DNA of 63,327 nt, counting the filler, from Collodictyon triciliatum (taxonomy: Eukaryota), in assembly GCA_043381765.1 (NCBI GenBank). It is 5 parts of 5 records of this genome, joined end to end, with 100 filler letters (N's around TTAATTAATTAA, not from the genome) between each part and the next. Parts side by side here need not be neighbours in the genome. Positions count along the whole stretch, not along the records: positions 26,280 to 41,159 come from JBHJMP010001769.1; 4 more parts are not named here. The stretch is one strand, 5' to 3'. A program made the translations under genes and the position numbers. The notes beneath the pieces are model-generated. The model made no database searches and was not told where the DNA came from. It saw only the letters and a list, made by a program, of their open reading frames with translations. Below, piece after piece: positions 21,141 through 56,171 of this stretch (its first letter is position 1; each line of letters opens with the position of its first letter).

Positions 21141-22340
21141 ATTTCGATTTCGATATTGCCCGGGAAAATATATTCATCAAAACTAGTATGTTTTGCTTGC
21201 TATTTTCTTTTATAAGCTGGGAGAACTAGACTATACCATCAAGTCTCAGGAAACTAGACACCGGCTCCTGTTACTGAATTATTAGTTCTCCTTTCTTGTT
21301 TTGTGTTGGAGAAAATGATTTATGTTGCATAAGTTGTTTTTCGGAGACTACTCAGCATTGAGAGTAACTTCTTTTTTATGCTCCTCAATATAAATGAAGT
21401 AAATTTAATGTCCATTTGATGATAATAGTGCTGTCATGTGCCTCTTATTATGATATTATCTATAAGGATACGGTGGTTAATCGATTATATGAGGTTAAGC
21501 AAGAGTGATGAAATCATCAATCGACTTGGACTTTTTTATTTTATTTTGTTTATCATTTATTCGATTCAAAGTGACCGTAATTATACTATAACAAAAAAAA
21601 GTCTTTCGATATCCCGAGAAATTATCATATCGAAAGGATGTGAATTGTGTAATCGCTACACATTATTTGCCCATATCTGACAAAAAAGTTAAACCTTGTA
21701 TTTTTAGGTCGCCTTGTGTCAAGCAAGGACATTCTTATTTTCGTAAATACATAATAACCTATCAACCTTACTGAAGGATGTTTAATTCACTTATGTAGCA
21801 TCAAATGCTATCAACCCAAAATTGATGAGAAAGTATCATCGGTAAACTAGTCCACAGCCGAAGGTATAGGTGCCGAAATGTTACATTTCTCGGCAGATTC
21901 GGTCAGAATCCTGTCCTTGCAGATGATTTAGATGCGTGAGATTAGACCGCCACAATAGATTCATTACCGAGCGGTATGGGTTGAGACATTGAATATCATC
22001 CAACTTAAAGAGTTTTATCAAAAATATAGCATCGTTTTTTTTTTTTTTTTTTTTTTTTTTGGCTGAGCTATTAATATTAGCGATGTGCGTCTCAAGATGG
22101 CGCACTAACTAAATTATACTGAAAATACTATGATATACTTCTCTGGAGGGAAGAAAAAGCAAAGGCTAACTTGTTATCTCCGCGACTTCTCACCCGGCCA
22201 GCGCTCCTGTCAAAAAGCTGTCATGAATGTCATTTGGCGTGGTGCATTCGGGTTGCATCTTAGTACCTGTTGCTGGTGGTGATTCTATTGCTTTCGTGGT
22301 ACAAACAAATTGGATAATGGAACCCACTATTTCCCTCTTT

Positions 22341-22880
22341 TCTATCTTTCTTTTTTATCTTTTCTTCTCTTTTCTTCTCTTTTCTTCTCTTTTCTTCTCT
22401 TTTCTTCTCTTTTCTTCTCTTTTCTTCTCTTTTTTTTTTCTTCTCTTTTCTTCTCTTTTCTTCTCTTTTCTTCTCTTTTCTTCTCTTTTCTTCTCTTTTC
22501 TTCTCTTTTCTTCTCTTTTCTTCTCTTTTCTTCTCTTTTCTTCTCTTTTCTTTCTTTTCTTCTCTTTTCTTTTCTTTTCTTTCTTCTCTTTTCTTCTCTT
22601 TTCTTTCTTCTCTTCTCTTTCTTCTCTTCTCTTTCTTCTCTTTTCTTTCTTCTCTTTTCTTCTCTTTTCTTTCTTCTCTTCTCTTTTCTCTTTTCTCTTT
22701 TCTCTTTTCTCTTTTCTCTTTTCTCTTTTCTCTTTTCTCTTTTCTCTTTTCTCTTTTCTTCTTTTTCTTCTTTTCTCTTTTCTCTTTTCTCTTTTCTCTT
22801 TTCTTCCTTTTCTCTTTTCTCTTTTCTCTTTTCTCTTTTCTCTTTTCTCTTTTCTCTTTTCTCTTTTCTCCTCTCTCCTC
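22341..22880. repeat. Polypyrimidine tandem repeat (TTTTCTTCTC / TTTTCTC units)
   Basis: Read directly. Confidence 0.95.
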
Positions 22881-23003
22881 TTATCAAAAAGAAACCATCC
22901 TATTTTCTACTTTCTCCTTTATAAATCACTGCATTACTAATCCAAAGAATAAAAAACAAAAACATGTGTTCTGTGCAGGTGTTCCTTGGGAGATAAACGG
23001 CGA

Positions 23004-26000
23004 ATGAAGAGAGAAACCTTCTATGTCAGTAGGTTATCTGCGTCGAGCAAAATAACGCGCTATATCCGCTCACTTCTTTGCCTCGCTGCGTTCATAAGTA
23101 TATGCTTGTCTATGCAAGCTACCTTTTGTGAAATGCAGTTTACTTGCGCGCATGACTATTATCTACAATACCACTCCGGGCTCGCCAAGGCACCCCAAAG
23201 TTACCTCCTAAACTCTGTAAGTAAATATGTATGTGCTTTTCGGCCGCTTTTTTGGTTAGCAATGATTATTTTGATGAGAACTTGATTAAAGTTCCAAATT
23301 AAATCCAAGATTGCTTTTTTTTTTATTATATTGTAATTTTCTTGTAATTGCATTATAGTTTATAATTTATTATGGTAGTTGTTTACATCGTTTCTTTTTT
23401 TCATTTGTTTGGAAGGCACTTATCTCTTTCATGACATCGTCCTATATTTGAAGGCTGTACGAAAACTATCTATCATATATGATACGCAATATCTATTGGA
23501 TTCAGCATACACCTGCATCGAAGCTGGATCGATTGTTTTTGTCGGTTTGTCTTTGAATCTTGTTTTTCATACTTTGAGAATTATGTGATTGTGAATACCT
23601 TTGTATACATTGAAGTTTTTTTCTTTTTTAATTTCAACCTTCAAACCTGCTCCTAGGGATGGATAGATCTATTATGTACTTTAACTCAAGTCTGGACTAT
23701 CCTTTTTGCTCTTCAAAAGTGTCTGTAAATTGTTGGTATACATGCTCTGAGGTAAGGAAAAGATATCATTAATTCAATTCGAAATCGACTCATCCCAGCT
23801 ATTCTGTTGATTTAATTTATTTTTGTATTCATTTGTTTGAACAGCTAATGATAAACCAATATAAATAAGTAAATAAATAAAGAGTGATATAGTTTCAGCT
23901 ACCTTTAAGAGTCACCTCATTGCCTCCATGCTATCCGTTTCGTCCCTGATATCCTCAATCATACAAGTTACGCCAACAAAAAACAGGTGGAATATATACA
24001 AAAATATTACAATCAATACAATATATTAGTCAATATGTATCAATAAATAATCACCCTGATATACTCAAAATAAGTCTTGTTCTTCCTGCTGGGACATGTG
24101 GAATATTGCAAGGGATACATGTTTCTCCCGAATATGTTGCAAAATTCGCGTCGCATGCAGATCTTGTTATTTTCCTAACTGCCAGGTGGATATAGAAATG
24201 AGCAGATATTTATATACAGTTCGTCTGTTAAACAAAACTAAACATTACAAAGCTGCTCGAAATTACAGCAACCAAACAAAAATAATTAAATAATTAACTG
24301 TCATCATTCGACAGACCTGTGACAGTAAAGAACTCTCCATCATACGGCACAAGCTGCATTATCGACCAAGATGGGCGTCCGCTTGTAGGTCATATAAATA
24401 TTGTTCCTGGTAGATGGAAAAAGGATGTAGCCACATCAGCGCCATTGAAATCTGTTCTGTTGCATGAAACAATACATGTGATGGGGTTTTCTTCATTAAA
24501 GTACCTGCCAAAATCAGTAACAAATGAATATTTGATAAATCCCGTTGCAATTTTATATCATCTATTTTGGTATTTGCAACCAGATGAATCTATTAGTTTT
24601 TTAAAAAAAAATTATCATACACGAAGCCTATTGCTTTTTGGGAATAGCAAAATATTGAACTTCATCGGGCCAAACGCCGGGGCTCATCATTTCTACGAAT
24701 GGACAGACCCAAATATGATTAATGTAATTATAATGTATATGTATATATATGTAATCCCTACTTGAATTTCGAAGTCATCTAAAATTATTTTCTAAATAAA
24801 AATTGTGATAGTATGCGAGAAACCAATTCCAATGCCCTCAAATAAAATCTGCTTCTTGGGAAAATTCAGAAGACACTGTATCTCATTGGGAGCAATGTAA
24901 ATATGAATAAATGCACATATTTTGGATTATTTATACAAATACCATTTCTGAAAAAATTGAAGAAAAAAACACAATCCAGTTTACTTTGAAGGAGAAATTA
25001 TGTCACCATCTTACTCCGGCCGCTCACTCATATCATATCTGACCTTGTCCTACTTTTCAGAAAGTGGTTGGTATCAGGTCTTTTTTATCTTAAGGTTTTT
25101 TAATTAATCTAATTGGATCTAATTTACCAATTTACATTATTTAAAAAAATAATCTTTTTTAATAATTATCTGGGGGATTCATGCTGTATTCCTTTCTCAT
25201 GCATTTTTTTTAAAAAAAAAATGTTGCCTATAAATGATATCTTGTGCATTTATAATTAGATTAAAAATTTAAAAATGGATAAAATTCTATTTGGATATCA
25301 TTTGGTATGAAACTCGAATAACTTATTGCATGATATATTCGATGAGCACATTGTGGAGATGAAAATTTTGTATTTTTTTTTTTGATGATACACATTCCTA
25401 TTCATATGGTTTTTAAATCAATTAGGGATGTGATTTTTACAAGAGCTGTCAATCTCGAACTCAGAGAGGATATCTATGCGTAGAAAATAATACAATGGCA
25501 TGTACATACGATTATCAATCCAAGGTGCCTTGAATATTTTTGTTGAATTTTGGTATATTTACGTGTTCTCAACGCCGATTACAATTCATCGAATTCCATG
25601 AGGCATCTCGCCCGATTACTTAATTTCATGCAATTTTTCTAGGGGCAGTGCATCCTGGTTGAGTATTTCAACCCCCTTCCAATTGAGTATCAATATTTCC
25701 ATAATCCTTTGCTTGGTGGGCGTTCGCCACATGCAAACTATTGCCCTTTTTATGAACCTGTTGAGGGTATTTTTATTCTTATATACGATTAAGAAGTAAT
25801 TCCCTTTCTTGCCTTTTGTCCTGTTGAAATAACCTCGTCTTCTCTAAGCAAGGTAAAAGAGAATATATATCGTAACTTTGGAATATTTATCCTCAAAGAT
25901 TGTTCGTCGTTGAGCTTTACAGATCGAAATTATGGGGAGGAAAGCACACCAAACTCAAGCTGTTTCATGAGCAATATTAAGCAGAAGACACCAGCATCGA

Positions 26001-26179: not shown

Positions 26180-26279
26180 NNNNNNNNNNNNNNNNNNNNN
26201 NNNNNNNNNNNNNNNNNNNNNNNTTAATTAATTAANNNNNNNNNNNNNNNNNNNNNNNNNNNNNNNNNNNNNNNNNNNN
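26180..26279. other. Artificial contig-joining linker
   Basis: N44-TTAATTAATTAA-N44. Confidence 0.97.
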
Positions 26280-30208: not shown

Positions 30209-32520
30209 AAGTTCTCCTTGCTAGAGATTGTATGTTGAATACACGGTATTACTACCTTTCAATTCACAACTCATATGTCCTATTGTCTGGTTGAACAACA
30301 ATCACAGATCAAGCTGAGCTAGATCCAAAGTTTGTTGATGAGTTTGCTGTGTCTGAGGTTTGTTACACAGTTAGTACATAAAGACGTTGGAGGCCCCCAT
30401 ATACCCCAACAAGACTCATGATCACAGGACCAGTATTATATATTTCTTTTCTCAAATATCTCCATCACACTGTTTATTTATTTCTCCATGTGTCTAGGTC
30501 ATTGGGAATGGAAGCTTTGGCACGGTCTATAAATGTTTGAAGAGGCTGGACGGATGGACCTATGCAGTCAAGAAATCAAGAAAGAAAGTGAAGGCCATTG
30601 GATCGTAATATTTTCTTATTTGCTCTCTCTCTCTCTCCTACATTTTACATTTGGAAGGAGGTCGCCTTCTTTATTCCGCTATTTTGAGACAACCCCAGGC
30701 TGAGCCATCCTTTTCGATCTCCTACTCTCCCTTAGTGAACAATTCAATGAGATCTACGCCCTAGCTGCTCTGGCCGACTCTCCTCACATTGTCCGTTACT
30801 ACAGCTCTTGGGTGGGAGATGATGGTCATATTTATATCCAGATGGAGGTATATTAGAACAAACTCTATTCCTATCGTTTCAGGCTACATTTACGTCTTCT
30901 CTTTGAGTGGAAACTGATACACTTGTTTTTCTTTTTGACTGCCCAGTACTGTGACCATCCAAATCTCGACAAACTCCGCCGGGATGGTCAGACTTTCTCT
31001 GAAGATAAATTGTGTGAAATTCTCCGACAGATGGCGCTGGTATGTTATGATTCATAAAATTATCGCCTGATTTTTTTTTCATTTGTTTTATTTTTACCAT
31101 CTCAGCTGTCTCATTATACATTGCTCATATTTGACCGAATAATTTTCCAAGTCTAACACCAACTAACTATAGGCGTTGAAGCTAATGCACGGAAGAGATA
31201 TTGTTCATCTAGACATTAAGGTATCATTTGTAGAGTAATTCGTTCGAGAACAAGAGGATACTTTTACCATATCTGCAATAACTTTATGAAATTTGAATCA
31301 TCGCTTTTCACTAAATTATCACGTATTCATACGCACACGCCCAGCCCGAAAACATATGTGAAAATAAAGGCCGCTATGTGCTCCTTGACCTTGGATTGTG
31401 TGTCCCGTCAACAAGGAGCGTTAGTGATCTGGCTGACGAAGGAGATTGGTAATTTGACAATGAGCATAGTATTCCTTTAGTAGCTCTGGGTCAACATGAA
31501 GCCTAGATACTTTTTTTTTGAAAAACAAGTGGAATGGTCGTATCTTTAACCCCCAATTATTATTATTATTATTTTATTATTTATAAAATAAAATAAAAAA
31601 AACCCACACACCAATAGTCGCTACTTAAGTCGTGAGATATTGCAAGACCCCAAAGCCGAGCTGTACAAGGCCGACATTTTTGCCCTGGGCATTAGTATAT
31701 ATGAGCTGGTAAGATTATTTTTTTTTGGGAGGGAGCGTACGAACGTCAAACTTTTTATCATATTTGTACTCAAATGAGGGAAATTATATTTGTAAGTGTA
31801 TATTTTTATCCTCGCGATGTCTAATGTCTTCCTCTTTATTCCATGTGTAATCTATCAGGCATTGGGGAAGTCGCTGCCTAAAGGAGGAGACGATTACCAA
31901 TCCTTGAGGGATGGCAATGTACCTTTTCCACCCGGCTTCACCGCTGACTTCATGGCTGTCATTCGGGTAAGACATAATTATTGACTGCTTGTTGGACATG
32001 TGTTTGCCTCGTTTTCATTTATGGGACAATCACCTCTGTATTCTTCATTTATTCGATTTATAGGAAGAAACATAATATTTTAATTATTGAAGCAATCCTC
32101 CTGGTGATCTTATTCCTCAATTATACATATTTCTGTATAATTCAAATGATAGCTGTATATATTCCGAATGAAATTAGAGAAGATATTAACAGTAGATAAT
32201 GCAATGAATTCGAGTCTGGTTTGGGTTGTTCTTGTCTGATTACTTATCCATTTATTTATTCTTGACTACAGAGCATGATGGATCCAAACCCATCGCTGCG
32301 CCCGACAGCCAAGGCGCTTCTTGAGACCCCTATCCTTGTGCTGGAAGAGAAGCATCAAGCCGAGGTTCTCCAAGTGGAGCTGAACCACGAACACTCGCTT
32401 GTGGAGAAGTACGAGCGGCAGCTGGCCGAAAAGAACCAACTGATTGAGCTCCTAGTAGGTCACGTCCACTCACTTGGGCATGAGCTACCTGCTGGGCTAC
32501 GAGGCTTTCTCGGGCAGTAA
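28171..32520 (+). CDS. WEE1: Multi-exon Wee1-family protein kinase
   Basis: The kinase domain splices in frame with GT-AG introns: IGNGSFGTVYKCLKRLDGWTYAVKKS, EIYALAAL, HIVRYYSSW, IVHLDIK|PENI, DLG, EGDC|RYLSREIL, KADIFALG. The N-terminus is rich in SP/TP sites and the C-terminus is coiled-coil. Stop at 32518-32520. Confidence 0.88.
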
Positions 32521-32796
32521 AGCACGTCGCTGTTGCCCTCCATCCCACCAGCCAGCCACGGCGGCCTCAGCATCCGGTATGTAAGCGTCCTGTGCGCCTG
32601 TGTATTATATGTCAGCGCACATGGGTGGTGAAGAATCAGCGCATGGTACCTATCTTGTTCTCGTCGGCGTTGTTCCACTGCCGCATCTTTTGTCTTTCAT
32701 TCTCCCCCTTTTGCGATGGTGTTGGTCATTCTAAGCCGCACCTCACCTTTTGTCTATCTGCGTCTATATTTAAAGTCTCTCCCTTCCTCTCTCTCT

Positions 32797-32881
32797 CTCA
32801 CTCACTCACTCACTCACTCACTCACTCACTCACTCACTCACTCACTCACTCACTCACTCACTCACTCACTCACTCACTCAC
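32797..32881. repeat. (CTCA)n microsatellite
   Basis: Read directly. Confidence 0.95.
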
Positions 32882-33872
32882 TATCCCTCCCTGTGTTCCT
32901 GTTTCCGAATTGGCAGCACCACCCTTGTCTGTGGCAAAGCTAAACTAAACTAAACCTAACCCGGAAGCCTCATCTTATCAAGAGGGGGGAAAGACCCATC
33001 GAGCTCTTTGGAAAAAATAATAATAATAAAGGCGAGCAAAAAAAGACCTATCGAGCTCAAGCCACCGACCCACGGGCAGCAAGATAATTATGATTATGGT
33101 GCTCAGTATTAGTTGCTCTGATTCATTTATCTTCTTTCTTTTTCTTTTCTTTCTCTTCGGTCTCATTCAGACTGTAAATGGATAAACTTTATTACAAAGG
33201 TTGCGACGAACTTGGTTTTATCCCTTTCAAGCCACAACACTTTTCATACAACGAAAGTGTACCCGCATATAGCAGTTTATCGCGCAGACAACCATCAAAT
33301 TTAATATGGATTGTCAAAAGCAGGAGCCTTAATGAATCCAAGAAGCAACCTGAATAATATAATAGTATGATTAGTATATAATAAGATTAAAAATACTTAA
33401 TACCCTTATTCTATTCCTATAATCAATTTAATTTTATTTACCATTTAAGTAATATTAATTAAAAAAATTAAAAAAAAATCCAAACAAGCTGATGCCTTGG
33501 CCCAGACAGAACCCACCCCTATAAACCTGCCACCAAACATACATTTCAAAAAAGCATTCTATCCACACTTGCGGCGGTAATCATGTTGTTTGGGGCCGAT
33601 GTGTTGACTTACAGTCGCAATGGTTATACGGCTGTCCTTTCGAACTCGCCGAATCGGCTCTCAACATTTTCTCTCAAATCACCTATAAAAAAAAACTTTG
33701 TGTGTTTGTTTGCCACAATTCGCACATTTTGAGAGTCTCGGTAGATGCTTGATTTTACCTGAATTGATTTTGTGGAATTTTATATATATTAAATTGACTG
33801 ATTGCCTAAAGATTTATTAAAATTGAAAACTCGGTGGTTTTCTAAAGGAAAAAATAAAATTAAGACTTTCAG

Positions 33873-35756
33873 ATGAAGAAAAGAAAACGTCTTGAGTTTG
33901 AGAATCTAAAGTCTGTTAAACCACACTATCGAAATGTGAAAACATCTCAAAAGTCGATTGTAAAAAAATGCGTATGACTATTACAAAATCAACGATACGG
34001 TTTTATTGTGTCATAATTTGGTTACCGATACTTATCTGTTTGCAAGATGTTACGTATTGAAATCACAACCACTCCCAACAATCGATGAAATGATTTTTTT
34101 TTTTTTTTGTACGCTTTAAAGGCAGTCGGAGTAGTTTCACAAGATAGACCCGCAAGATTAAAAAAACCAGAAATGAGTAAAGACGTGATGACTTTTACCC
34201 CAATGATTTCCGATTCCTTTTTGTCCCGAGAAGAATGCTTTCCGTTGGTCGGACCGTCTCATGTATTACCGTACTTGGCGAGGCAAATGTTAACAGCTTA
34301 TCATAATAACATTAAAGAATTTTTTGTAAAGAGGTTACTGCACTTTATAAACCAAACAGTTCCTAAAAGATGAGAATATCACGGAAGTTAAAAAAAGCCA
34401 TCTTTATGAAACTCGAAATACCAGAACAATACAAAGAATGGGCTATAATGCATTTGCATCATATCATTCCCAGCGATATTGTAAATGGTATCGAATATGA
34501 CGCCAAAGTCAATCAAAATAAGTGCATTTCACGTCTGATTTTCATGAATCACATTCTTGGGGACATAGGAACCAAACTGTTTCAACCAATCTCTATAAGA
34601 ACTGACAATATACCATGTCATATTACTCTAGCTACTGCATGTTTGATAGATATATTAGTATTATCTAGAAAAAAAATCATTAATGAAGAATATATCAGGA
34701 TGCAAAGAGACCCTATGGGATAAGTTCTTTGAAATGAAGAAGAGGGTCTTTCATCATAGAGACTACAATTTTAAATACATGATGCAAACAGACGGCTTGG
34801 CGGCGTCATTATTGTTTGAAAAGAAAGGTATTTCAAATTCAAAATTCCAATATAAAATCAAAAAAACAAGAATATGTTTATATAGATGAACTTTCCGAAG
34901 AGCAGTTATCTTTATTAGCGAAAAAAAAATACTTAGATTGGATGCAGGCAAGTTTAATTTTGTTTACATGGTGGGCGAGACAGGTAGGAAATTACGTTGC
35001 ACGGCACACCAAACAAGACATGATAACAAATCTCTTAAAAACCACAAAATACTCTCGCGCGAGAAAAAAAAAAGTACAATGCTTCAGGGATATGCATGGC
35101 AACAGATTTTTACAAAGTACTATTTCTTTTGGTCACACTACTTTTGAAGAGAATCAGTAGTTTGAGACATTAAGGGTATCTTTAATCGATTTAGAGACAA
35201 AACTGAGTAAACATTTTTTTTTTCCTTTATTCGAAAAACTGAGTAAACATAATTCATGCACGGTCGATTACGAAAAATGTCGAGAATAAGTATCTATGAA
35301 ATCAAGATACCAGAAAAAATTTCCAGATTTTATGAACACGCAACTTTTCGAAAGATGAGATGGAGACAGTATGTTAACACAAAAAGAAGTGTACAATTGT
35401 TTATGGACCGAATCGAAAAGACATTTGGCAAGGATGTTGTACTGGTATATGGAGACTGGAGCAGAAAATCTTCGAAGTAACATTTTACGCCAACAATCGG
35501 AAGAGGATTACGAAAAATACTATCCAAACGTTTTGAAACAGTCCGTGTAGATGAATTTAGAACGTTCAAGATGATTCGTAACTGCGAAAAAGAACAGGAA
35601 TATATGAAACTGATAGAAGTACAAACAAAAAAAAAAATGTATAGATGTCTCATGTGTAAATAATGCAATCTTTCAGAAAGCAAACAAAGTGTATTCTTGA
35701 CAAGGGAATTTAACAGCGGCAACAATATAGTCAAGAAAGTTCTATTAATTCTTTGA
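33873..35756 (+). pseudogene. Degenerate Fanzor1-type RuvC nuclease gene (eukaryotic TnpB relative)
   Basis: Stitching frames gives MKKRKRLEF...YRNVKTSQKSIV, INDTVLLCHNLVTDTYLF, KLFQPISIRTDNIPCHITL, MQTDGLAASLLF, RuvC-I LDAGKFNFVYM (D 34941), FRKMRWRQY, VLVYGDWSR, RuvC-II VDEFRT (E 35553), Cys remnants and RuvC-III-like TREFNSGNNI. Frameshifts occur at homopolymer runs, with in-frame TAA at 35478 and 35661. Confidence 0.85.
35199..35250 (-). mobile_element. Extremely 5'-truncated poly(A) retroposon insertion with a 16-bp target-site duplication, inside the Fanzor gene
   Basis: AAAACTGAGTAAACAT at 35199-35214 and 35235-35250 flanks a 20-bp insert that reads TCGAATAAAGG(A)n on the minus strand. 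Confidence 0.75.
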
Positions 35757-35784
35757 AATATTCCTACACCTTCCTCTAAAAAAA

Positions 35785-35917
35785 GCAGGCTGTCGGGGCA
35801 TTCCAGGCGGTCTTCGCCACTACATAATCTTTGTGAAAAAAGTGGTGAGACCTTGGATACTAACAGACCAAGTTTACCAATCTTTCGATTGGTATGAGCC
35901 CTTCAAGTCTCAACTAG
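35785..35917 (+). ncRNA. Candidate Fanzor omegaRNA scaffold / element right end
   Basis: Directly 3' of the Fanzor ORF: a long imperfect stem (35802-35821 with 35841-35857) and a perfect hairpin TACCAATC-TTTC-GATTGGTA (35875-35894). Boundaries are inferred. Confidence 0.55.
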
Positions 35918-36258
35918 TTTAGCAAAATATTGAAAACAACTGGGTTAGCGAAAGACACTGGCAGCTGCGCCTCCCCTCCCACTGGCGAGTGTGACCTGAC
36001 CCGGGCTTGCAAGCAAAAGCAAAAGCAAAAGCAAAAGCACAAGCGAAGCGAAGGAGGGGCCAGACTTTGAGATGACGACTGGAGTGGGGCCAAGCCGACC
36101 GGCCAGCGTCATCCCGGCGGAGATGCTGGTGGGGCAGGGGTAGCGAAAGGGGCTGTGCCCAACGCAGCTCCGCATCCTTCGATTCCGCAGCAGTGTCGCT
36201 TGGATGATTTTTATTGACGGGTGGACGACGCATGTCGCTCAAAAGAGAAGGGGGAGCA

Positions 36259-36292
<34 letters not shown>

Positions 36293-36372
36293 GTTGAGTA
36301 TGGTTGAGTATGGTTGAGAGCGACAGACATAGAGGACGGACGGAGGAGAGGGCTCTGGCAGGGCGCCGCGTG

Positions 36373-37428
<1,056 letters not shown>

Positions 37429-37491
37429 TTATTTGTCATTTTGTTTTTTTTGTTTTTTTTTGTTTTTTTTGTTTTTTTTTGTTTTTTTTTT

Positions 37492-37537
<46 letters not shown>

Positions 37538-37555
37538 NNNNNNNNNNNNNNNNNN

Positions 37556-37632
<77 letters not shown>

Positions 37633-37975
37633 TTTTCTTTTTCTTTTTGGACTGGTCCCTCATAACTTTTTTTGTTTCTTTATGAATAGACGATCAAGTT
37701 TATATAGTGAGCATTGATGATTATATATGTATACTTTTCCTGACCTTTACATGGACTCAGGAAGCTTGCATCAGCTTGAAGAAGAGTAAGTAAACTACAA
37801 GTTTGGTCTACTCAGAGCAGAGACCCAAAGGTGTACTGAAAAGCTTTTGTCAACATGTCTCGCCGGCCAACTTATGTACGACCTTTTCTTTTCTTTTTTC
37901 TTTTTTCTTCCACTTTTAATATGTCTCCTTTTTTTAACCCAAATTAAATGAAATTACATAAATCATATTTTCGAT

Positions 37976-41159: not shown

Positions 41160-41259
41160 NNNNNNNNNNNNNNNNNNNNNNNNNNNNNNNNNNNNNNNNN
41201 NNNTTAATTAATTAANNNNNNNNNNNNNNNNNNNNNNNNNNNNNNNNNNNNNNNNNNNN
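41160..41259. other. Artificial contig-joining linker
   Basis: N44-TTAATTAATTAA-N44. Confidence 0.97.
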
Positions 41260-56071: not shown

Positions 56072-56171
56072 NNNNNNNNNNNNNNNNNNNNNNNNNNNNN
56101 NNNNNNNNNNNNNNNTTAATTAATTAANNNNNNNNNNNNNNNNNNNNNNNNNNNNNNNNNNNNNNNNNNNN
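56072..56171. other. Artificial contig-joining linker
   Basis: N44-TTAATTAATTAA-N44. Confidence 0.97.

What the first reader, a model, noticed from the sequence alone, without database searches (positions are those of the whole stretch)
33873..35756. Hidden Fanzor1-type RNA-guided nuclease gene, split across several small ORFs
Seen: the ORF fragments at 34107-35480 plus unlisted frames join into one colinear protein with TDG, LDAGK (RuvC-I), GDWS, VDEFRT (RuvC-II) and REFNSGNNI, where the RuvC-III Asp reads as Glu. Known: this motif order is typical of Fanzor1, the eukaryotic omegaRNA-guided TnpB/Cas12 relatives. Inferred: this copy is dead (frameshifts, in-frame TAA, an insertion), but intact relatives may exist elsewhere in the genome and could be a new Fanzor lineage. 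No transposase lies next to it, so it looks non-autonomous.
Basis: partly seen in the sequence, partly recalled or inferred. Interest (0 to 1): 0.85.

Follow-up and report, generated by a model that had tools for sequence, protein, structure and literature searches.

The report
Dead Fanzor1 nuclease gene relic
This is a decayed, non-functional copy of a Fanzor1 RNA-guided nuclease gene from a mobile element, lying between two ordinary host genes; this kind of element is already well described, so the copy itself is ordinary.

Summary
Window 33873-35827 (+) is colinear with an intact 648-aa metagenomic protein, P0180 (residues 1-642, 378 of 635 aligned residues identical). The match needs 13 frameshifts and reads through 5 in-frame stops. 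The frame-0 read-through alone finds 1414 relatives at E<=1e-3 (best 9.3e-56) and solved Fanzor1 structures (PpFz1 3.5e-10). A profile of intact relatives hits SpuFz1, PpFz1 and GtFz1 at 1e-89 to 1e-67 and no Fanzor2. The P0180 model superposes on SpuFz1 at TM 0.74-0.79.

The copy is dead. It has lost 15 of 65 family-invariant residues, including the RuvC-III Asp (now Glu), one zinc-finger Cys and the Pro of DPG. No transposase or terminal inverted repeat is detectable.

Other broken copies exist in public assemblies. About 350 contig pieces per run in two related organisms cover the element at 80-99% likeness. The nearest large group of intact relatives lies in giant-virus contigs, often beside a Tc1/mariner-type transposase.

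This is a new member of a known kind, not a new Fanzor lineage. Interest is low to moderate.

The parts
33873..35827 (+). Fanzor1 pseudogene, from the ATG to the terminal TAA. It has 13 frameshifts and 5 in-frame stops relative to P0180.
   Evidence: Frameshift-aware alignment. Colinear tblastn pieces.
33600..33872 (+). Upstream non-coding stretch that belongs to the same repeated element. Contigs of related copies cover it. The left end of the element was not reached.
   Evidence: read laying: tables 2 and 8, and a loose end at 33602 that continues the window's own sequence.
34788..34796 (+). T-D-G motif, the WED-domain hallmark of Fanzor1. Intact.
   Evidence: Motif meaning from PMC10711439.
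34941..34949 (+). RuvC-I D-A-G. The catalytic Asp is kept. The invariant Pro of DPG is replaced by Ala.
   Evidence: DPG is invariant in alignments A1, A2 and A3.
35075..35175 (+). Segment of about 32 codons after R-E-K-K-K. It is shared with P0180 and absent from the giant-virus homologues. It holds TAG 35158 and a frameshift near 35108. Whether it is a coding insert or an unspliced intron is unresolved.
   Evidence: The matching P0180 residues 417-437 have pLDDT below 50.
35200..35250 (+). 36-nt insertion specific to this copy, bounded by a 15-nt direct repeat (35200-35214 and 35236-35250).
   Evidence: Contigs of other copies skip 36 nt from 35200 to 35237 (table 5).
35451..35462 (+). G-D-W-S. 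Gly sits at the canonical RuvC-II Glu position, which is the rearranged active site.
   Evidence: PMC10530073.
35547..35567 (+). V-D-E-F-R-T-F. The alternative RuvC-II Glu at 35553 is kept. The invariant Ser is replaced by Phe at 35565.
35574..35666 (+). C4 zinc-finger region. The first Cys is replaced by Ile (35574). Cys is kept at 35583, 35655 and 35664. TAA 35661 lies between the last two.
35703..35729 (+). RuvC-III R-E-F-N-S-G-N-N-I. The catalytic Asp is replaced by Glu (GAA at 35706).
   Evidence: P0180 and P0072 keep Asp.
35828..35948 (+). 3' flank still covered by some contigs of related copies. This is the expected place of the omega-RNA and right end, but there is no positive evidence for either.
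   Evidence: table 2. The fold of 35700-35990 is not better than shuffles (z -0.43). No Rfam hit.
30501..32650 (+). Left neighbour: a multi-exon protein-kinase gene of the host. The end coordinate is approximate.
   Evidence: Six-frame Pfam scan: Pkinase at E 9.7e-6 and 3.8e-5 in two frames.
36373..37428 (-). Right neighbour: GAPDH, 351 codons open, GC 66.7%.

Best explanation
Window 33873-35827 (+) is a pseudogene. It is a decayed copy of a Fanzor1 gene, the eukaryotic and giant-virus branch of the TnpB/Cas12 superfamily of omega-RNA-guided RuvC DNA endonucleases. It once rode in a multi-copy DNA element and landed in the 3.4-kb spacer between a host kinase gene and GAPDH.

Intact family members are inferred to work like SpuFz1. 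This inference rests on homology and fold; it was not shown here. In SpuFz1 the protein binds an RNA made from the 3' end of its own element, recognises a short TAM plus about 15-20 nt of guide-complementary DNA, and cuts with a D / alternative-E / D RuvC site.

In giant-virus relatives the gene sits inside a Tc1/mariner-type transposon with about 30-bp TIRs flanked by TA, next to a DDE transposase.

The window copy can do none of this. Its frame is broken 18 times, three catalytic or structural residues are replaced, and neither a transposase nor element ends remain. It is evolving as neutral DNA.
For: Homology and family:
- 1414 relatives at E<=1e-3, best 9.3e-56.
- PpFz1 3.5e-10, SpuFz1 3e-5, GtFz1 0.046.
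- a profile of 30 intact relatives hits SpuFz1 at 1.7e-89, PpFz1 at 1.1e-87 and GtFz1 at 1.1e-67. The next hit is 1.5e-3, and no Fanzor2 is among the 10 hits.
- the P0180 model (pLDDT 86.5) matches SpuFz1 at TM 0.74/0.79. Fanzor2 (9b0l) scores 0.22/0.29 and ISDra2 TnpB (8h1j) 0.25/0.39.

Colinearity and lesions:
- 13 frameshifts and 5 stops.

Relaxed constraint:
- 15 of 65 columns invariant in 15 intact relatives are lost, two of them to stop codons.
- D604E, C562I, S559F and P365A.
- The five stops align with different residues in relatives. Where closer copies can be compared, TAA 35478 lies opposite Lys and TAA 35661 opposite Glu. This pattern is not a recoded stop.
- Four long host ORFs have no internal stop and end in TAG, TGA, TGA and TAA.

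Multi-copy family:
- ORF calls P0072 and P0101 (NCBI-sourced, on contigs of 582 and 513 bp) switch frame against the window at 67-80% identity, so they come from other broken copies.
- 350 contig pieces (X1) and 349 (X2), both runs from one study, lie on 33600-35948 at 80-99% likeness. A third run from another study, X8, gives 73 pieces.
- Several of those contigs lack the window's extra bases at 33962, 34851 and 35107, carry an extra A at 35321, or skip the 36-nt insertion.

Element type in relatives:
- L001 4631-7952 has about 30-bp TIRs, a DDE_3 plus HTH transposase, and the Fanzor ORF.
- 48 of 154 held viral loci have a relative of that transposase within the flank. Some loci are the same place fetched twice.

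Literature: the same arrangement is described in PMC3627910 and in 10.1101/2024.09.03.611062.
Against: - 6 of the 13 frameshifts lie within 12 nt of a homopolymer of 6 or more bases. Some could therefore be assembly errors. No run holding this exact locus was available to check them (best share of words 0.09).
- Neighbouring host ORFs hold only 12 runs of 6 or more bases and none of 8 or more. They are a weak control for homopolymer accuracy.
- No TIR, TSD or transposase was found in the window. That this copy arrived as a transposon is inferred from relatives.
- No omega-RNA signal was found.
- The host organism and its full copy complement are unknown.
Confidence: 0.9

Rival explanations
1. 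The gene is alive. On this view the frameshifts are homopolymer assembly errors and the odd segments are introns, so the organism makes a working Fanzor1 from this locus.
For: - 6 of 13 frameshifts lie next to runs of 6 or more bases.
- The host has many short introns (kinase gene).
- The segment at 35074-35174 begins with GT and ends with AG.
Against: - Five nonsense codons are substitutions, not indels.
- 7 of 13 frameshifts are not at long runs.
- 15 of 65 invariant residues are lost, including the RuvC-III Asp, a zinc-finger Cys and the conserved Ser.
- Removing the putative intron does not restore the frame.
Confidence: 0.03
2. The locus is a relic of an integrated giant virus (an endogenous viral element), not of a transposon copy. 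On this view the Fanzor gene is the last recognisable piece of a larger viral insertion.
For: - The nearest large group of intact relatives is in giant-virus contigs. 511 of 522 candidate stretches in IMG/VR are relatives, and the best identity to P0180 is 44-47%.
- GC is 33.9%, against 66.7% in GAPDH.
- Virus-to-host sharing of Fanzor elements is described in 10.1101/2024.09.03.611062.
Against: - Host genes lie 0.5 kb to the right and about 1.2 kb to the left, so there is no room for more viral DNA.
- Other host ORFs are also AT-rich; the LRR gene is 37.8% GC.
- The element is present as hundreds of diverged contig pieces in two related organisms, which is the pattern of a dispersed repeat.
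- Two unknown ORFs in the window have no close relative in IMG/VR. This is weak evidence, because that method finds close relatives only.
Confidence: 0.06
3. The in-frame TAA codons are read as an amino acid in this organism under a variant genetic code.
For: 4 of the 5 in-frame stops are TAA.
Against: - The stops align with different residues in relatives. Where closer copies can be compared, TAA 35478 lies opposite Lys and TAA 35661 opposite Glu.
- The 13 frameshifts would remain.
- The NHL-repeat ORF ends in TAA, and none of the 4 long host ORFs has an internal stop.
Confidence: 0.01

Closest known systems
SpuFz1 (Spizellomyces punctatus Fanzor1; PDB 8gkh, 9ceu-9cez), PpFz1 and GtFz1
   Same: - The same family by profile (E 1.7e-89, 1.1e-87 and 1.1e-67) and by fold of the intact relative P0180 (TM 0.74-0.79 to SpuFz1).
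- The same TDG, DPG, Gly-for-Glu and alternative-Glu, zinc-finger and RD-x-N signature in intact clade members.
   Different: - Only about 20% identical in structure-based alignment.
- The window copy is broken and has lost the RuvC-III Asp, one Cys, the Ser of T-S and the Pro of DPG.
- Its clade carries an extra, low-confidence segment of about 32 residues.
Giant-virus Fanzor1 elements with an IS630/Tc1/mariner transposase. Examples are PGv-1 in PMC3627910 and families A-C of the Chlamydomonas endogenous giant virus in 10.1101/2024.09.03.611062, which also reports a Fanzor fragment in a host chromosome.
   Same: - The closest large group of intact relatives is of this type. L001 4631-7952 has TIRs flanked by TA, a DDE_3 transposase and a Fanzor1 ORF.
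- Degraded, Fanzor-only and fragment forms, and host-genome fragments, are described in that preprint.
   Different: - The window clade is at most 47% identical to any viral locus fetched and forms its own branch.
- No transposase, TIR or TA duplication is recognisable in the window.
Fanzor2, IS607 TnpB and Cas12f
   Same: - The same superfamily, with a RuvC domain split by a zinc-finger (TNB) domain.
- 8 of 10 intact relatives give a PF07282 hit at E below 0.01. Only P0005 reaches the curated cut-off, at 28.8 bits against 26.3.
   Different: - No Fanzor2 chain is among the profile hits at E<=1.
- Fold TM is 0.22/0.29 to ApmFz2 and 0.25/0.39 to ISDra2 TnpB.
- No IS607 TnpA is present.

Membership tests
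Fanzor1 | Significant sequence similarity to experimentally characterised Fanzor1 proteins over the whole length | tested here: met
   - Window read-through against PDB: PpFz1 3.5e-10, SpuFz1 3e-5.
- Profile of relatives: SpuFz1 1.7e-89 over profile positions 4-599 of 612.
Fanzor1 | TDG motif in the WED domain (PMC10711439, passage read) | tested here: met
   T-D-G at 34788-34796. T is invariant and D and G nearly invariant in A3.
Fanzor1 | RuvC-I catalytic Asp inside a D-P-G motif | tested here: met
   Asp is kept at 34941. The Pro is replaced by Ala in this copy only. DPG is intact in P0180 and P0034.
Fanzor1 | Rearranged RuvC-II: Gly or Pro at the canonical Glu position, with an alternative Glu downstream (PMC10530073) | tested here: met
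   Gly at 35451 (G-D-W-S) and Glu at 35553 (D-E-F), 34 residues apart.
Fanzor1 | RuvC-III catalytic Asp (R-D-x-N) | tested here: not met
   GAA (Glu) at 35706. Asp is invariant in A1, A2 and A3 and is kept in P0180 and P0072. The locus descends from a member but is not a functional one.
Fanzor1 | C4 zinc finger between RuvC-II and RuvC-III (PMC3627910) | tested here: not met
   3 of 4 Cys are kept. The first is Ile at 35574, and a TAA lies inside the finger at 35661.
Fanzor1 | Fanzor1 fold, including its REC insertions, as opposed to the compact Fanzor2 or TnpB fold | tested here: met
   Tested on the intact relative P0180, not on the window copy. TM is 0.74/0.79 to SpuFz1 and 0.65/0.69 to GtFz1, against 0.22/0.29 to ApmFz2.
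Fanzor1 | Open reading frame that can give a protein | tested here: not met
   13 frameshifts and 5 in-frame stops.
Fanzor1 | Cognate omega-RNA (reRNA) encoded at the 3' end and right end of the element | tested here: inconclusive
   - No Rfam family matched.
- The fold of 35700-35990 gives z -0.43.
- No sequences of other copies were available for covariation.
Fanzor1 | Carried by a eukaryotic-type transposon with TIRs, a TSD and, in autonomous forms, a transposase | tested here: not met
   - Window: the best inverted match between the flanks is no better than shuffles (85 of 200 shuffles score as high).
- No relative of the viral DDE_3 transposase is found anywhere in the window (best E 2.9).
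- No transposase domain is found in six frames of 30500-33872.
- The feature is met in viral relatives.
Fanzor2 / IS607 TnpB | Closer similarity to Fanzor2 or TnpB than to Fanzor1, and an IS607 TnpA neighbour | tested here: not met
   No Fanzor2 is among the PDB profile hits. Fold TM is 0.22-0.29. There is no serine-recombinase domain in the flank.

The most novel reading that the evidence does not exclude
The window copy is a fossil of a still-active, multi-copy Fanzor1 transposon lineage: the P0180 clade, at most 47% identical to any sampled giant-virus Fanzor1. On this reading the lineage lives in an uncharacterised group of eukaryotes and was exchanged with giant viruses. Intact members such as P0180, with their extra segment of about 32 residues, would be a new programmable nuclease and a marker of virus-host transfer of selfish DNA in that group.
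Probability: 0.35. Interest if true: 0.4.

Novelty: new member of a known kind. Interest (0 to 1): 0.25.

Why it matters
For annotation, the locus should be labelled as a Fanzor1 pseudogene or repeat, not as a set of small ORFs.

It adds one more case of a Fanzor1 lineage shared between giant-virus-type elements and a eukaryotic genome. It also points to an intact relative, P0180 (648 aa), and to organisms that carry many copies. Those are where a working enzyme and its guide RNA could be sought. The dead copy itself has no functional importance.

Tried and rejected
- **Pfam on the window.** The eight separate ORF pieces and the read-throughs gave no relevant family. The intact relatives carry a precomputed PF26935.1. 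That model is not in the local Pfam copy, and I do not know its name.
- **Whole-genome search.** No assembly is held.
- **Second copy in the window.** None was found by blastn or tblastn.
- **Inverted repeats.** Nothing beyond chance.
- **Rfam and tRNA scans of the window.** Nothing found.
- **Sequencing runs.** No RNA holder is listed.
- **Read laying.** No contig of the four runs lies on 35949-36000. Cover thins after about 35718, with loose ends there in X1 and X2. This hints at a right end but is not evidence for one. Many single-contig joints are listed, including one at 34825-34917 with GT..AG ends. I read these as internal deletions in other copies, not as splicing. The skipped part is conserved coding sequence in all relatives, and the kind of the runs (RNA or DNA) is only a guess. 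X3 gave only 2 pieces, one of them 144 nt and identical; I do not take this as evidence of habitat.
- **JGI metagenome scan with P0180.** One distant locus at 21% identity.
- **Word-based search with the C-terminal read-through, longer proteins.** Only P0180 was found.
- **Homopolymer control on neighbouring ORFs.** Too few long runs to be informative.
- **Intron reading of 35074-35174.** Unresolved.
- **Host identification.** Not attempted beyond noting eukaryotic genes with short introns.
- **Supplementary tables.** The supplements of PMC10432273, PMC10530073 and PMC10711439 list Fanzor loci and could already include this lineage. Supplements were closed, so I could not check.
Full report
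**1. What is there**

The window is eukaryotic nuclear DNA:
- An intact GAPDH gene lies on the minus strand at 36373-37428 (Pfam Gp_dh_N and Gp_dh_C).
- A multi-exon protein-kinase gene lies on the plus strand at about 30.5-32.6 kb.
- There are LRR, FANCI-like and NHL-repeat ORFs.

Between the kinase gene and GAPDH lies an AT-rich stretch (33.9% GC, against 66.7% in GAPDH). Its three forward frames each hold pieces of one protein.

**2. Check of the observation**

Frame 0 of 34659-35756, read through with stops as X (P0001), was scored against 1.84 billion representative proteins. It found 1414 relatives at E<=1e-3, 470 at <=1e-10 and 22 at <=1e-30. The best was P0003 (634 aa, E 9.3e-56). Against PDB chains the same query hit Parasitella Fanzor1 (3.5e-10), Spizellomyces Fanzor1 (3e-5) and Guillardia Fanzor1 (0.046).

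A word-based search starting from the partial relative P0034 found P0180, an intact 648-aa protein from a 2.6-kb environmental contig. My frameshift-aware alignment puts P0180 residues 1-642 on window 33873-35824, with 378 of 635 aligned residues identical. The path crosses:
- 13 frameshifts, near 33963, 34093, 34191, 34220, 34368, 34393, 34679, 34851, 34918, 35052, 35108, 35323 and 35751;
- 5 in-frame stops: TAG 35158 and TAA 35287, 35478, 35661 and 35777.

The frame ends at TAA 35825-35827. The more distant P0003 gives the same colinear picture (230 of 568 identical).

Its end is 71 bases short. All its motifs are where it said.

**3. Family**

A profile of 30 full-length relatives (A1) hits:
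- SpuFz1 at 1.7e-89, over profile positions 4-599 of 612;
- PpFz1 at 1.1e-87;
- GtFz1 at 1.1e-67.

The next chain (LaTranC) is at 1.5e-3, and no Fanzor2 is among the 10 hits at E<=1.

An AlphaFold2 model of P0180, built with a 51-row alignment, has mean pLDDT 86.5 and pTM 0.84. It superposes on SpuFz1 at TM 0.74/0.79, on PpFz1 at 0.66-0.70 and on GtFz1 at 0.65/0.69. The best non-Fanzor1 chain reaches 0.32. Mimivirus Fanzor2 scores 0.22/0.29 and ISDra2 TnpB 0.25/0.39.

The signature named in the literature is present in the clade:
- TDG in the WED domain and DPG at RuvC-I (PMC10711439, passages read);
- Gly or Pro at the canonical RuvC-II Glu position, with an alternative Glu downstream (PMC10530073, passages read);
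- [TS][TS]-x-x-C4 zinc finger and RD (PMC3627910, passages read).

So GDWS and VDEFRT in the window are the two halves of the known rearranged RuvC-II.

The local Pfam copy gives nothing for the window. For intact relatives it gives only PF07282 hits at E below 0.01, in 8 of 10. Only one of those reaches the curated cut-off.

**4. The copy is dead**

Of 65 columns invariant in 15 intact relatives (A2), the window keeps 50 and has lost 15:
P221Q, E236G, D260A, P365A, L370F, R388T, E391D, F463C, Y466stop, N506D, Q528S, S559F, C562I, D604E and F627stop.

These include the RuvC-III Asp, one zinc-finger Cys, the Ser of the T-S pair and the Pro of DPG.

Closer copies keep what the window lost. P0180 and P0072 have Asp at RuvC-III. 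P0072 has Glu where the window has TAA 35661, and P0101 has Lys where the window has TAA 35478.

The five stops face different residues. Four long host ORFs have no internal stop and end in TAG, TGA, TGA and TAA. A variant genetic code is therefore not the explanation.

Six of the 13 frameshifts lie within 12 nt of a homopolymer of 6 or more bases, so a few could be assembly errors. No run holding this locus was available to test that. The nonsense and missense changes cannot be explained that way.

**5. The 'insertion'**

Relative to the viral homologues there are about 47 extra codons, in two parts:
- About 32 codons (about 35075-35175) are shared with P0180, where they are open in frame and modelled with pLDDT below 50. 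P0034 ends inside this segment, and P0011 has a different insert at the same place. It is a clade-specific variable segment. The window sequence begins with GT and ends with AG, so an unspliced intron is possible. I could not decide this.
- A further 36 nt, bounded by a 15-nt direct repeat (35200-35214 and 35236-35250), are specific to this copy. Contigs of other copies skip exactly 36 nt there.

**6. A multi-copy family**

P0072 (136 aa) and P0101 (84 aa) are NCBI-sourced and lie on contigs of 582 and 513 bp. Each matches the window partly in the Fanzor frame and partly in a shifted frame, at 67-80% identity. They are ORF calls on other broken copies.

I laid the contigs of four public runs on 33600-36000 at 80% likeness or more:
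- X1 gave 350 pieces, split 36/77/120/117 across the bands 99% and above, 95-99%, 90-95% and under 90%.
- X2 gave 349 pieces, split 33/76/131/109.
- X8 gave 73 pieces.
- X3 gave 2 pieces.

X1 and X2 are two coded organisms from one study. X8 and X3 are from two other studies. X1 and X2 each cover 29 of 30 bins, including the 273 nt upstream of the ATG.

Several contigs lack the window's extra base at 33962 and 34851 and its two extra bases at 35107, or carry an extra A at 35321. At least some of the window's frameshifts are therefore private to this copy.

The only full-length protein that shares words with the window's C-terminus in 5.8 billion clusters is P0180 (63% identical).

**7. Relatives in giant viruses and the element type**

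In IMG/VR, 511 of 522 candidate stretches encode relatives of the family. Many lie on giant-virus MAG contigs of up to 289 kb. All 80 loci kept have open ORFs of 573-896 aa. The best identity of any viral locus to P0180 is 44-47%.

I built a maximum-likelihood tree of 71 rows, made up of:
- the window read-through, with X at each break;
- 46 full-length representatives, chosen from the 96 stored proteins of 560-720 aa by rank or presence;
- two partial ones (P0034 and P0011);
- 22 of the 80 viral ORFs (the first six plus every fourth).

In this tree the window groups with P0180, P0034 and P0011 (SH-aLRT 99). That group lies next to two clades that hold the viral sequences (join support 86). 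The root is not known, so no direction of transfer can be stated.

Comparing viral loci L001 and L002 bounds a 3.3-kb unit at L001 4631-7952. It has:
- about 30-bp terminal inverted repeats flanked by TA;
- a 346-aa DDE_3 plus HTH transposase on the opposite strand (PF13358, E 1.3e-13);
- the Fanzor ORF, ending 15 nt before the right repeat.

48 of the 154 held viral loci have a relative of that transposase in the flank. Some of those loci are the same place fetched twice.

This is the Fanzor1-in-Tc1/mariner arrangement already described for algal giant viruses in PMC3627910. It is also described for an endogenous giant virus of Chlamydomonas in preprint 10.1101/2024.09.03.611062. That preprint also reports Fanzor-only forms, degraded forms and a host-chromosome fragment (passages read).

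**8. What the window lacks**

- No relative of that transposase occurs anywhere in the 63 kb (best E 2.9).
- No transposase domain occurs in six frames of the 3.4 kb upstream.
- There is no inverted repeat between the flanks beyond chance (score 20 against a shuffle mean of 19.3; 85 of 200 shuffles score as high).
- There is no second copy in the window.
- There is no Rfam or tRNA hit.
- The 3' flank shows no unusual folding (z -0.43).

**9. Verdict**

The claim of a new lineage is not supported at the level that would matter. This is one decayed member of a sub-clade within a large, already described family. The virus-host sharing it hints at is already documented elsewhere.

The mechanism given for intact members is inferred from homology and fold to SpuFz1. 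Nothing was tested functionally here.

Papers: for PMC10432273, PMC10530073, PMC10711439, PMC3627910 and 10.1101/2024.09.03.611062 I read passages found by term search. I did not read whole texts or supplements. Other titles were seen only as listings.

Noticed in passing
window 11280-11379, 26180-26279, 41160-41259, 56072-56171: Four identical N patterns (44 N, 12 bases, 44 N) recur about every 14.9-15.0 kb. There is also a 409-N run at 6746-7154 and an 18-N run at 37538-37555. They look like scaffolding or masking artefacts, not biology.
   Followed up: no
L001 4631-7952 (IMG/VR giant-virus MAG contig): A complete 3.3-kb Tc1/mariner-type transposon in a 254-kb giant-virus contig. It has about 30-bp TIRs flanked by TA, a DDE_3 plus HTH transposase (4638-5678, minus strand), a 69-aa ORF of unknown function (5740-5949) and an intact 634-aa Fanzor1 (6001-7905). 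The same unit occurs at 74% DNA identity in another viral contig (L002, L003, L005).
   Followed up: partly
protein P0004: A 378-aa Fanzor1 fragment is named '6-pyruvoyl-tetrahydropterin synthase' by its source. This is very likely a mis-annotation.
   Followed up: no
window 22227-23007: Long Lys/Glu/Arg-rich low-complexity repeat that is open in several frames on both strands. It gives spurious tblastn matches to the basic linker of Fanzor proteins.
   Followed up: no
window 30501-32650 (+): Protein-kinase gene split by several short introns of roughly 60-120 nt, with exons in alternating frames. The last exon encodes a coiled-coil-like tail. It shows that the host has short AT-rich introns.
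   Followed up: no
window 32773-32906, 36011-36040, 36255-36295, 37440-37665: Microsatellites around the locus: (CTCA)n, (CAAAAG)n, (GT)n and a long poly-T/A tract interrupted by Ns just upstream of GAPDH.
   Followed up: no
window 36373-37428 (-): The GAPDH ORF has GC3 of 92.6%, while neighbouring ORFs such as the LRR gene are 37.8% GC overall. The GAPDH frame has no Met before the conserved INGFGRIGR start, so a small 5' exon is likely.
   Followed up: no
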